Shown: one piece after another, positions 19,701 to 22,700 of the stretch | Layout of the letters: every line of letters starts with the position of its first letter | Numbering within the stretch: the stretch's first letter is position 1 | Assembly (NCBI RefSeq): GCF_057098645.1 | Contig: NZ_CM169472.1 | Length of the DNA stretch: 64,000 bases | Strand: one strand, 5' to 3' | Made by a program: the position numbers

Positions 19701-22700
19701 ATCCACGCAGCCCCCGACGACATTAAAGGCCGTTCAAGCAGCGGATCGTCAGGCTGTAAGCGCAATTTGCCTGCCTTGCCGTGGCGAGCAAACGCGGTAT
19801 ACGCTGCCGCCATATCTTCCAGTTTTGCACCAGCACCGCCGAGAATGAGCGAAAGATTGGGCGCAGCGCCGTTGGGCAGATACAACGGCAATCCAACATT
19901 GCGTAATTTTGCCGCAAACCGTTTCGGTCCATAGGCTTCCAGCACCTGCACAGCAGGTAAATTCAGCGAGCGCACCAGCGCCTCGCTCATGCTGATCGGG
20001 CCATGAAAACCGCTATCAAAGTTACCTGGTCGATAATCACCTGTGCGTCGGGGAACGTCTTGCAACAGCGATGCCGGGTGGATCAAGCCTTCATCCAGCG
20101 CCAGACCGTAAACAAACGGTTTGAGCACCGATCCTGGCGATCGGATCGCATTGACCATATCAACATGACCAAAGCGTGAATCATCGTTGAGATCAACCGA
20201 ACCCACCCAGCCGCGAACACGCATATCGGTATGATCAACCACGATCATCGCCAGTGAGCTGCGCGGTGGTAATCGTCCTTTCCAGTTTTGCGCCAGTTCT
20301 TCCAGACGTCGTTGAAGACCGGCATCCAGCGTAGTAACGATTTTGTCGCTTTTGCTTTTACCGAGCATCATGCGCGAAAACAGCGGTGCCAATTGCGGCA
20401 TTTGTCGGGGTGCCAGCCAGATGGGTTCTTCCCTTGACTCTTTTACCTGCTCACGGGACCACACACCTTGCGCAGCCATCCGTTCGAGCACTTTATTACG
20501 CGCGGCTTCGGCACGCTCCGGCCAACGATCCGGGCGCAGTCGGCTGGGCGCTTGCGGTAACACCGCCAGCATTGCCGCCTCGGAATAGCTTAAATTCGCA
20601 GGCGATTTTCCGAGATAAGCCCAACTTGCCGCACCGATCCCCTGCAACGTACCGCCAAACGGAGCGCGGTTAAGATACAAGGTCAGAATTTCACGCTTAG
20701 ACAAATGCCACTCCAGTTGCAACGCGCGCCAGAGCTGGCGAATTTTGCCGCCAAATGTTTTGGGGTGAGGATCAAGCAGACGAGCAACCTGCATAGTGAG
20801 CGTGCTGCCACCGGAAATAACCCGTCCCGAAGTGAAATCTTGCCATGCTGCGCGCGCCACCGAGAATGGATTCACCCCAGGATGCTTCCAGAACCAGCGA
20901 TCTTCATAATTGATCAGCGCTTCAAGGTAACGTGGAGAAACATCTTCGATTGTTACCGGATAACGCCAGATGCCGTCAGCATCGGCGAAGCGCCAGAGCG
21001 GCGTACCATCCTGCGCCACGACCACTCGTGCGGGATTGACTTCATGCAGCGGTAGAGGCCAGAGTTTATCTGCTCCCCACGCTGCAAGAAAAAGGAGAAA
21101 TGGCGCAGCTGCCAGCGTTATCCAGCAGCCGCGTTTGGTTAACAAGCGAGGCATTTACGGTCTGACAATCAGCAAATCTTCAGCCGCGCCGGTCGCCCGC
21201 CATTGGGGAACATACATTGATTCCACCATCGGTTGCGGTACCTGATACGTTCCCGGCGTCACCGCCCGCGCCAGATACACCAGCGTTACCGGTTGGTATT
21301 CATCAACGGCAACCGCCGCCACAAAGCGATCGTCACGGAACTCAATGTGCTTAATGCTCGCCTGCTGCATCTGGTTCAGTAAGTTCTGCACTTCGCCACC
21401 ACTTTGCTCCAGGCTGGCGCTACCGTTCGCCAGATTCTGGTTTTCCAGTTCCAGACCCGCAGGCAGCAGATCCACGACTAACGCATCCGGCACGCTGTTA
21501 CTGGCTTTTACCTGCAACCAGACCAGCACCAGATCGCCGCTACGTAACGAGTCCAGCGATTTGCTCTTACCATCAGTACCAAGAATATGACGCTCGATTT
21601 GCAGCACATTGTTCACCGGTAAAGGTGCGGATTGCGGATAACCGCTGGCATCCACACGCAACCATAACGGCTGATCGCCACTGTTGCTCACCTGCAAGGT
21701 GGCAAGTTGATCGCTATTCAGATTGCTGTTTTGCGCTTTCTCGCCTGTCAGCGGCTCAGCTGAGAAAGAGGTTTGCGCCTGCCATTTACCCGGTAAATCC
21801 TGAATCGTACGGGCAGCCAGGAACAACGCGTTACTTTCCTGCGTCGATAGCCAGCGTTCACCAAACGCCTGCTGCGAAAGTGTGTTCAGCAAAGTGTACT
21901 GCTCATCGGGTAGCAGTTTATTTTCTTCCAGCAAGGAGAGCATTAACGCGTTGTCGCGCAGTGGACTACCGTAATCACCCAGCCATATCCGCTCATCACT
22001 ATTACGCGGCGTTTTCAGCGCCAGCACAATTGCTTCTTCACCACGCGTCGCATCACCCATGGTTTTCAGCGCAACGCCAAGTTGCAGCAGCGGTAAACCA
22101 GAAGCGGCATCTGCACGATGCTCCCAGATTTCACGCAGCGCACCCAGCGGAGCCTTTTGCTGACGGGCCAGCACCAGCGCAGCGTAAGACTGTACGGCGA
22201 ATTTACTGGCTTTGAGATTATCCGCGTACGGGATCGACATCATGCCTGGATCTTGTAAATAGCGCAGCAGACGCTCATTACCCCGGTTAATGGCGTCTGT
22301 CGGCACGCTGTAACCCTGTTCGCCTGCGCGGACCAGGAAATCCATCACGTAAGCCGTCAGCCAGTACTCTTCGTCACCGTTTTTATCCCACAGCGCAAAG
22401 CCGCCGTTATCACGTTGCATTTGCAGCAAACGGGAAATGCCGATATCGACCGATGCACGGCGTTTCTCATCACTGTCGCCTTTGATGCCCAACGCCTGCA
22501 GTTGGGCTGCGTTGGTATAAAGTGACGGGAACAGGCCGCTGGCGGTTTGCTCAAGACAGCCGTACGGATACGCTTTTAACTCTTTGATATAACGTGCGAT
22601 GTTCAGCGGTGGTTTGCCGCTCAACAACAATTGCCCTTCCAGCGTAACAGGCGAGAAATTTTGCAATCCATCCGCCGGAATCGCCCATGTCTCACCAGGC

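What the first reader, a model, noticed from the sequence alone, without database searches (positions are those of the whole stretch)
21152..21157. yfhM stop abuts pbpC start (TAA-ATG)
The alpha-2-macroglobulin gene ends at 21155-21157 and pbpC begins at 21154 with no spacer, implying translational coupling of the two partners. The pairing is known; the exact junction is what is noted here.
Basis: seen in the sequence. Interest (0 to 1): 0.2.

Follow-up and report, generated by a model that had tools for sequence, protein, structure and literature searches.

The report
yfhM stop abuts pbpC start
In this E. coli window the alpha-2-macroglobulin gene yfhM ends with TAA and the cell-wall enzyme gene pbpC starts with ATG on the very next base; this is real but is the standard, published annotation, and the less ordinary feature is a conserved RNA hairpin 22 bases into pbpC.

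Summary
Confirmed, on the minus strand. It reads ...CCG TAA ATG CCT...: yfhM stop at 21157-21155, pbpC ATG at 21154-21152, no spacer, same frame.

It is already known. RefSeq annotates these ends in K-12 and in divergent E. coli, and Huber et al. 2023 list the K-12 pair with distance 0.

All 68 distinct Enterobacteriaceae junctions have a spacer of 0 (34) or +1 (34), and none of the eight checked has a Shine-Dalgarno sequence. The tight junction is not universal: Yersinia and Photorhabdus have about 50-60 nt, and only 30 of 67 diverse loci fall within -8..+10.

Translational coupling by reinitiation after yfhM termination is the most likely route to PbpC synthesis (about 0.55). It is untested, and nothing shows the two proteins form a complex.

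New here: a 12-bp hairpin inside pbpC codons 8-17 (21133-21104) is conserved with strong covariation (96% of cells paired; 8 of 12 pairs compensated).
- It matches the terminator pattern in a Klebsiella-type locus but not in E. coli.
- In Yersinia, Photorhabdus and Mixta a comparably placed hairpin lies in the spacer.
- This suggests attenuation or 3'-end formation after yfhM, so that PbpC is made in much smaller amounts than YfhM.

Interest is low for the junction and modest for the hairpin.

The parts
21155..26116 (-). yfhM (ECAM), the bacterial alpha-2-macroglobulin lipoprotein, 1653 aa; its TAA stop is at 21157-21155.
   Evidence: ORF list. The translation shows a lipobox and CLEQ. Pfam finds bMG1/2/3/5/6/10, A2M_BRD and TED. 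RefSeq annotation has identical ends.
21155..21157 (-). yfhM stop codon TAA. It is followed directly by A, giving the context UAA-A.
   Evidence: The stop is TAA in 59 and TAG in 9 of 68 Enterobacteriaceae junctions.
21152..21154 (-). pbpC start codon ATG. It directly follows the yfhM stop in the same frame and has no Shine-Dalgarno sequence upstream.
   Evidence: The anti-SD duplex energy of -20..-1 is +0.4 kcal/mol. Eight relatives with spacer 0 or +1 give -0.2 to +0.6. This ATG is the only start upstream of the TM helix that is conserved across E. coli lineages.
18842..21154 (-). pbpC (penicillin-binding protein 1C), 770 aa. It has a short basic N-terminal tail followed by a membrane anchor.
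   Evidence: Pfam finds Transgly, Transpeptidase and BiPBP_C. RefSeq annotation agrees.
21104..21133 (-). Conserved RNA hairpin inside pbpC codons 8-17 (+22..+51 from the ATG). The 5' arm CGCGGCTGCTGG is at 21133-21122, the loop ATAACG at 21121-21116, and the 3' arm CTGGCAGCTGCG at 21115-21104. Predicted energy is -21.2 kcal/mol.
   Evidence: Single-sequence folds. The RNAalifold consensus keeps it. On 68 distinct sequences, 96% of cells are paired, 8 of 12 pairs have compensatory changes, and 0 of 500 shuffles reach the observed value; slid controls give 35-61%. G-U pairs place it on the sense-strand RNA. There is no Rfam match.
21085..21103 (-). T-rich run after the hairpin (CCATTTCTCCTTTTTCTTG), which also encodes the membrane-helix residues PFLLFL. 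As a U-tract it is poor in E. coli.
   Evidence: It is not called terminator-like in the window. The equivalent site in a Klebsiella oxytoca/michiganensis-type locus is called terminator-like: 13 pairs, tail ATTTTTTTGC. The tail is variable across lineages, with at least 5 T in the first 8 nt in 29 of 68.
26161..26189 (-). Sigma-70-like promoter match upstream of yfhM, a candidate operon promoter. This is a consensus match only.
   Evidence: No minus-strand promoter-like match lies between it and the junction.

Best explanation
yfhM and pbpC form one transcription unit in which pbpC has no ribosome-binding site of its own. Its ATG sits directly after the yfhM TAA.

The ribosome that has just released YfhM therefore has the pbpC start within reach. 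The most likely route to PbpC synthesis is termination-reinitiation, possibly helped because the terminating ribosome has melted the local structure. This would make PbpC synthesis dependent on, and a small fraction of, YfhM synthesis.

A conserved 12-bp hairpin starts 22 nt into pbpC, beyond the footprint of a ribosome sitting on the TAA or the ATG. It most likely limits what gets through, either by partial transcription termination, by forming a stable 3' end for yfhM mRNA, or by damping reinitiation. The operon would then give much YfhM and little PbpC.

Shown here: the geometry, its conservation, the lack of SD, and the hairpin with its covariation. Inferred: coupling itself and the role of the hairpin.
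For: - Spacer of 0 nt in the same frame.
- The same ends are annotated in K-12 and in divergent E. coli.
- A spacer of 0 or +1 in all 68 distinct Enterobacteriaceae junctions. Ten of them were named through exact protein matches: 0 nt in Klebsiella-, Citrobacter-, Raoultella- and Pluralibacter-type loci, +1 in Enterobacter cloacae complex-, Phytobacter/Kluyvera- and Pseudocitrobacter-type loci. Among the named genomes, Escherichia and Citrobacter have 0, and Enterobacter and Superficieibacter have +1.
- No SD: +0.4 kcal/mol against -5 to -11 for most genes in the window, and the same in eight relatives.
- The start region is mostly paired in predicted ensembles; unpaired probability over -12..+12 is 0.22-0.50.
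- No promoter-like match inside yfhM near the junction.
- Reinitiation in E. coli is efficient only at overlaps or very short distances and does not strictly need an SD (PMC10666635; PMC12548453).
- Tight junctions recur independently in distant lineages: ATGA overlaps in many alphaproteobacteria, TGATG in Stenotrophomonas.
- Hairpin: covariation, and a terminator-like call in a Klebsiella-type locus.
- In Mixta, Yersinia and Photorhabdus a hairpin sits right after the A2M stop in the spacer.
- The 70 nt after the A2M stop are more structured than coding controls in 67 loci (p=2e-7).
- Terminators in the first 100 bp of a coding region can work (PMC4824070).
- PbpC has only zero entries in the table of a large absolute proteome supplement (PMC8144880).
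Against: - No experiment on this pair was found.
- SD-less genes can be translated de novo in E. coli.
- The 0/+1 spacing could be kept simply because both protein ends are constrained.
- Within Enterobacterales the pair also works with ~50-nt spacers, where reinitiation should fail. Coupling is therefore not essential to the pair.
- Structure just downstream of an upstream stop has been reported to lower coupling (Chemla et al., as cited in PMC12548453).
- No 3' end for yfhM or pbpC appears in two Term-seq supplement sets as held. These files may be truncated, and the operon is weakly expressed.
- The E. coli U-tract is poor.
Confidence: 0.55

Rival explanations
1. The abutment is mere genome compaction. 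pbpC is translated by independent, SD-less de novo initiation at a low rate, and the position of the yfhM stop has no mechanistic role.
For: - About a quarter of same-strand E. coli pairs are this tight.
- rodZ in the same window also lacks an SD.
- Related Enterobacterales separate the two genes by ~50 nt. Yersinia then has an SD of its own (-7.8 kcal/mol); Photorhabdus has only a weak one (-3.8 to -4.1).
- No complex between the two proteins is known.
Against: The start has neither an SD nor an open structure, which is poor for de novo initiation. The 0/+1 spacing is invariant over 68 distinct junctions while neighbouring codons change freely. Tight junctions arose repeatedly in distant lineages.
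Confidence: 0.25
2. The main control at this junction is transcriptional or at the level of RNA stability. The hairpin in pbpC codons 8-17 is the 3'-end element (terminator or attenuator, or exonuclease barrier) of yfhM mRNA. pbpC is expressed only from read-through transcripts, and the stop-start abutment is a by-product of pbpC's start having moved up against yfhM, over that element.
For: - Hairpin covariation involves non-synonymous changes in both arms.
- It is called terminator-like in a Klebsiella-type locus. The same kind of element lies in the spacer in Mixta, Yersinia and Photorhabdus.
- Structure after the A2M stop is enriched across 67 loci.
- Terminators early in ORFs can function.
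Against: The U-tract is weak or absent in E. coli, Citrobacter and several others, so intrinsic termination cannot be the shared function. No mapped 3' end was found. This explanation is compatible with coupling rather than opposed to it.
Confidence: 0.35
3. The annotated pbpC start is wrong. Translation begins at a later in-frame codon (TTG at codon 4, or ATG at codon 13 in some strains), so the genes do not truly abut.
For: TTG is present at codon 4 in the window and in K-12. B2-type strains carry ATG at codon 13, and a metagenome gene caller used it: a 758-aa cluster representative begins MLAAAPF.
Against: Codon 4 is CTG in B2-type E. coli and in E. albertii, and codon 13 is ACG in the window and in K-12. 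Neither alternative has an SD. Orthologues in 68 junctions all offer ATG or GTG at 0 or +1. A start at codon 13 would remove the basic tail that orients the membrane anchor.
Confidence: 0.04

Closest known systems
Bacterial alpha-2-macroglobulin (class 1, ECAM/YfhM) - PBP1C gene pair (Budd et al. 2004; cited in PMC3735191 and PMC4498604)
   Same: A lipoprotein A2M with a CLEQ thioester is encoded directly upstream of pbpC on the same strand. This window is the E. coli example itself.
   Different: Nothing differs. The literature describes the adjacency and calls it an operon, but the papers read here do not discuss the junction or how pbpC is translated.
E. coli gene pairs coupled by termination-reinitiation (hyfH-hyfI, ydbH-ynbE, menD-menH; Huber et al. 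2023, PMC10666635)
   Same: Same-strand neighbours with the stop and start within a few nt. K-12 yfhM-pbpC is listed in that paper's table with distance 0.
   Different: The tested pairs overlap by 1 nt, and in the authors' earlier work (2019) the SD contributed to coupling in all four E. coli pairs tested. yfhM-pbpC has a 0-nt spacer and no SD, is flagged as not forming a complex, and was not tested.
[quoted passage not shown]
   Same: The downstream ORF lacks an SD, and its start lies at the upstream stop.
   Different: The phage case was tested experimentally. Here dependence on upstream termination is only inferred.
Internal terminators or stem-loops inside operons that set unequal output of neighbouring genes (e.g. 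ABC importer operons of Clostridia, PMC9045158); terminators early in ORFs (PMC4824070)
   Same: A stable stem-loop lies just after the stop of a gene whose product is needed in excess, followed by a less expressed gene.
   Different: In Enterobacteriaceae the stem-loop is not intergenic. It lies inside the downstream ORF and encodes the basic tail and the start of the PbpC membrane helix. Termination or 3'-end formation here has not been shown.

Membership tests
Class 1 bacterial A2M - PbpC gene pair | A2M homologue with signal peptide/lipobox and CxEQ thioester motif | tested here: met
   MKKLRVAACMLMLALAGC... and YPYGCLEQ are in the translation. Pfam finds bMG1/2/3/5/6/10, A2M_BRD and TED.
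Class 1 bacterial A2M - PbpC gene pair | pbpC (Transgly + Transpeptidase + BiPBP_C) directly downstream on the same strand | tested here: met
   ORFs at 21155..26116 and 18842..21154, both on the minus strand. Pfam domains. RefSeq names.
Translationally coupled pair (termination-reinitiation) | Stop-to-start distance within about -8..+10 nt | tested here: met
   0 nt; 0 or +1 in 68 Enterobacteriaceae junctions.
Translationally coupled pair (termination-reinitiation) | Both genes on one mRNA | tested here: inconclusive
   There is no room for a promoter and no promoter-like match near the junction. Papers call it an operon. However, a hairpin that is terminator-like in some genera lies 22 nt into pbpC. 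No transcript mapping was found.
Translationally coupled pair (termination-reinitiation) | Translation of the downstream gene depends on translation of the upstream gene to its stop | not testable with these tools
   This needs reporter fusions with premature stops, as in PMC10666635.
Translationally coupled pair (termination-reinitiation) | SD for the downstream gene inside the upstream ORF (common and contributory, but not obligatory) | tested here: not met
   Anti-SD duplex +0.4 kcal/mol; -0.2 to +0.6 in eight relatives.
Intrinsic (Rho-independent) terminator / attenuator | G+C-rich stem-loop on the transcript | tested here: met
   12 bp, -21.2 kcal/mol, with covariation support.
Intrinsic (Rho-independent) terminator / attenuator | U-tract immediately 3' of the stem | tested here: inconclusive
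   E. coli has CCAUUUCUCC and is not called. An Enterobacter-type locus is not called. A Klebsiella-type locus is called, with tail ATTTTTTTGC. At least 5 T in the first 8 nt occurs in 29 of 68. The T-rich codons also encode the membrane helix.
Intrinsic (Rho-independent) terminator / attenuator | RNA 3' ends mapped at the site | tested here: inconclusive
   There is no entry for pbpC or yfhM in the supplements of PMC7815308 and PMC12207403 as held. The files may be cut, and expression is low.
Rfam families | Match to a curated covariance model | tested here: not met
   Only a chance-level hit (E=0.23, a lncRNA) was found in 20700-21500.

The most novel reading that the evidence does not exclude
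The abutting TAA-ATG and the conserved hairpin 22 nt downstream work together as a ribosome-sensing attenuator. Only when the ribosome that finished YfhM reinitiates at once on the SD-less pbpC ATG does it enter the 5' arm and keep the hairpin from forming. pbpC transcription, or the survival of pbpC mRNA, would then be contingent on reinitiation, and PbpC output would be fixed as a small share of YfhM output. The element would have been overprinted by the codons for the PbpC basic tail and membrane helix when the intergenic spacer, still present in Yersinia, Photorhabdus and Mixta, was lost in Enterobacteriaceae.
Probability: 0.2. Interest if true: 0.45.

Novelty: already known. Interest (0 to 1): 0.2.

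Why it matters
The junction itself adds nothing new. It is the reference annotation and is already tabulated.

It matters slightly for how PbpC, a very low-abundance and poorly understood class A PBP, is expressed. With no ribosome-binding site of its own, its synthesis probably hangs on YfhM translation, which fits the proposed defence-and-repair pairing.

The conserved hairpin inside the pbpC coding start is not in Rfam, and I found no paper mentioning it. If it attenuates transcription or marks the yfhM mRNA 3' end, it would be a clear case of an RNA element and a membrane-anchor coding sequence sharing the same bases. It would also give a simple handle for testing how stop-start abutment and downstream structure interact in coupling.

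Tried and rejected
- **Alternative pbpC starts.** TTG at codon 4 and ATG at codon 13 are not conserved within E. coli.
- **Read-through fusion of the two in-frame ORFs.** No A2M-PbpC fusion of about 2,400 aa appeared among the 150 best PbpC representatives; the longest was 982 aa. A fusion would also put the PbpC domains on the wrong side of the membrane (inference).
- **Internal promoter for pbpC near the junction.** No consensus match was found. A sigma-E SELEX peak lies inside yfhM (PMC5493296). By my own conversion of its older-version coordinate, it sits near the 5' end of yfhM, about 4.5 kb upstream of the junction.
- **Known RNA family at the junction.** None.
- **A long-range helix pairing yfhM codons with pbpC codons 2-4**, seen in the single-sequence fold. 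The alignment consensus does not keep it, so it is not claimed.
- **Experimental support.**
  - Term-seq supplements have no entry for either gene.
  - Ribosome-profiling and initiation-profiling supplements are not held.
  - The absolute proteome table has only zero entries for PbpC, and the YfhM row is cut off.
- **Position-by-position comparison of the whole window with NZ_CP028379.1.** It failed (21,118 mismatches), so gene coordinates borrowed from that record are reliable only where the start codons checked out.
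Full report
**1. The observation**

The two genes are on the minus strand. The plus strand at 21150-21159 is GGCATTTACG, so the minus strand reads ...GTC AGA CCG TAA ATG CCT CGC TTG....

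The ORF list gives pbpC at 18842..21154 (-), 770 aa, and yfhM at 21155..26116 (-), 1653 aa. The yfhM TAA occupies 21157-21155 and the pbpC ATG occupies 21154-21152. There is no spacer, and the two ORFs are in the same frame.

- PbpC has Transgly, Transpeptidase and BiPBP_C domains.
- YfhM has the bacterial macroglobulin domains, the bait region and TED.
- YfhM also has a lipobox and the CLEQ thioester motif.

**2. It is the standard annotation**

The 501-nt junction region is present in 5,425 of 5,426 complete E. coli genomes, and in all ten best hits it is annotated as yfhM | pbpC.

RefSeq gives exactly adjacent ends in:
- a strain whose 501-nt junction region is identical to the window;
- K-12 MG1655, with pbpC 2645013..2647325 and yfhM 2647326..2652287;
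- three divergent lineages, down to 92.6% identity.

Huber et al. 2023 list the K-12 pair with distance 0 and mark it as not forming a complex. Papers on ECAM call yfhM-pbpC an operon, citing Budd et al. 2004.

A junction this tight is not unusual. In E. coli, 707 of 2,987 same-strand pairs lie within -8..+6 nt.

**3. Is the start right?**

ATG is the first codon after the in-frame TAA. The only other candidate upstream of the membrane helix is TTG at codon 4, which is CTG in B2-type E. coli and in E. albertii.

Citrobacter orthologues are also 770 aa, with a variable but equally long basic tail. A 758-aa cluster representative starts at an ATG that some strains carry at codon 13. RefSeq still annotates the longer form in such a strain.

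**4. Comparison with other genomes**

*Diverse species.* One scan of species-representative genomes gave 77 PbpC loci. Of these, 67 have an A2M C-terminus upstream on the same strand. Among those 67:

| Position of the candidate pbpC start relative to the A2M stop | Loci |
|---|---|
| within -8..+10 nt | 30 |
| +11 to +100 nt | 16 |
| more than 100 nt | 13 |
| unresolved by my heuristic | 8 |

ATGA overlaps are common in alphaproteobacteria, and TGATG occurs in Stenotrophomonas. This agrees with the published figures for COG2373-COG4953 pairs: median 9.2, quartiles -4 and 65, n=337.

*Enterobacteriaceae.* I combined genome loci with a metagenome scan for the conserved YfhM C-terminal coding motif. 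This gave 68 distinct junctions:
- spacer 0 in 34 and +1 in 34;
- stop TAA in 59 and TAG in 9;
- start ATG in 60 and GTG in 8.

Exact protein matches named ten of the metagenome lineages, and the genome records name their own organisms:
- 0 nt: Klebsiella (oxytoca/michiganensis, pneumoniae/aerogenes), Citrobacter, Raoultella and Pluralibacter types, plus the Escherichia and Citrobacter genomes.
- +1 nt: Enterobacter cloacae complex, Phytobacter/Kluyvera and Pseudocitrobacter types, plus the Enterobacter and Superficieibacter genomes.

*Outside that family* the spacer opens:

| Lineage | Spacer |
|---|---|
| Enterobacter sp. Ag1 (named genome) and four unnamed metagenome loci | about 11-15 nt |
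| Mixta | +15, or +33 with the start implied by NCBI's shorter 774-aa protein |
| Yersinia | about +52 |
| Photorhabdus | about +58 |
| most Pseudomonas | hundreds of nt |

**5. How pbpC is probably translated**

The 20 nt before the ATG give an anti-SD duplex energy of +0.4 kcal/mol. That is among the weakest of the window's genes, most of which score -5 to -11. Eight relatives with spacer 0 or +1 give -0.2 to +0.6.

The start region is predicted to be mostly paired. No promoter-like site lies near the junction.

In E. coli, reinitiation falls steeply with distance and does not strictly require an SD. The best-supported reading is therefore that PbpC is made mainly by ribosomes that have just terminated on the yfhM TAA.

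This is an inference, and three points weaken it:
- No experiment on this pair was found.
- The pair functions with ~50-nt spacers in related families.
- The invariant 0/+1 spacing could partly reflect constraint on the two protein ends.

**6. What else is there: a conserved hairpin inside pbpC**

Folding the junction showed a 12-bp hairpin at +22..+51 of pbpC (window 21133-21104), with energy -21.2 kcal/mol.

*Covariation.* On the 68-sequence alignment:
- 96% of cells are standard pairs, against 78% in shuffles (0 of 500 shuffles reach the observed value) and 35-61% when the partner is slid.
- 8 of 12 pairs show compensatory double changes, in 147 cells. For example, one pair is UA 24, CG 19, GC 16; another is CG 34, GC 31.

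The changes are non-synonymous in both arms (Arg-Ser-Arg-Trp / Leu-Ala-Gly-Ala, Lys-Arg-Arg-Trp / Leu-Ala-Ala-Phe, Arg-Gly-Cys-Trp / Leu-Ala-Ala-Ala), so protein constraints do not explain them. G-U pairs place the structure on the sense RNA. No Rfam family matches, and a literature search linking pbpC to such an element found nothing.

*Terminator-like or not.* The hairpin is followed by a T-rich run that also encodes the membrane helix.
- The combination passes the terminator pattern in a Klebsiella-type locus: 13 pairs, tail ATTTTTTTGC.
- It does not pass in the E. coli window or in an Enterobacter-type locus.
- The tail has at least 5 T in its first 8 nt in only 29 of 68 sequences.

*Position tracks the A2M stop.*
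- In Yersinia, Photorhabdus, an Orbaceae genome and others, a strong hairpin lies at about +6..+40 after the A2M stop, in the spacer before pbpC.
- In Mixta, the hairpin in the spacer matches the terminator pattern.
- In Yersinia artesiana, the 3' arm of that hairpin contains the pbpC SD.
- Over 67 loci, the 70 nt after the A2M stop are more structured than coding controls from the same locus: mean -25.7 versus -20.6 kcal/mol, Wilcoxon p=2e-7.

The element therefore looks like a post-yfhM structure that came to lie inside pbpC in Enterobacteriaceae.

*Likely role.* Terminators in the first 100 bp of an ORF can work. Structure just after an upstream stop has been reported to lower coupling. PbpC has only zero entries in a large absolute proteome table. 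Together these suggest that the hairpin keeps PbpC output far below YfhM output. Its actual role (termination, 3'-end stabilisation, or damping of reinitiation) is not shown, and two Term-seq supplements as held list no 3' end there.

**7. Verdict**

- The junction is already known, and its interest is low.
- The hairpin is a modest, apparently undescribed feature that can be tested with simple reporter and 3'-end mapping experiments.

Noticed in passing
window 21104-21133 (-), with T-rich run 21085-21103 (-): A 12-bp RNA hairpin lies inside pbpC codons 8-17. It is conserved with strong covariation across 68 Enterobacteriaceae sequences. It matches the terminator pattern in a Klebsiella-type locus but not in E. 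coli. It is not in Rfam.
   Followed up: yes
L009 (Yersinia artesiana) about 3927-3960; L021 and L046 (Photorhabdus); L163 648-671 (Mixta): Where pbpC is separated from the A2M gene, a strong hairpin sits in the spacer right after the A2M stop. In Yersinia artesiana its 3' arm contains the pbpC Shine-Dalgarno sequence, which would allow coupling by unfolding. In Mixta it matches the terminator pattern and ends just before the start implied by NCBI's 774-aa protein.
   Followed up: partly
L085 (E. coli NCTC9100, NZ_LR134239.1): This strain lacks pbpC and ndk. yfhM is followed directly by rlmN, and the match to the window stops 18 nt into pbpC.
   Followed up: partly
window 21116-21118 (-), pbpC codon 13; L081 and L082: B2-type E. 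coli carry ATG at pbpC codon 13 (ACG in the window), lying in the hairpin loop. A metagenome gene caller uses it, giving a 758-aa representative of a cluster with 10,805 members.
   Followed up: partly
L020 (Yersinia aldovae ATCC 35236, draft contig): The pbpC 5' end shows an apparent frameshift: there is no in-frame start before the membrane helix, and the ATG lies in another frame. This may be a pseudogene or a homopolymer sequencing error.
   Followed up: no
whole window versus NZ_CP028379.1 3190175-3254174: The region from 9435 to about 45000 matches the reference gene coordinates. A position-by-position comparison of the full 64 kb gives 21,118 mismatches, and several borrowed start coordinates fail (sinI-like gene, yphE to purL). 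The window therefore carries at least one indel relative to that strain.
   Followed up: no
yfhM interior (K-12, old coordinate 2649866): A genomic SELEX study lists a peak for an RNA polymerase holoenzyme with a minor sigma factor (sigma-E, going by the section heading) inside yfhM, assigned towards pbpC (PMC5493296). By my own coordinate conversion it lies about 4.5 kb upstream of the junction.
   Followed up: no
protein clusters returned: Some 90%-identity clusters mix PbpC with alpha-2-macroglobulin proteins, and in one case with ZntA. This looks like a clustering artefact, possibly bridged by fused gene calls across the in-frame junction.
   Followed up: no
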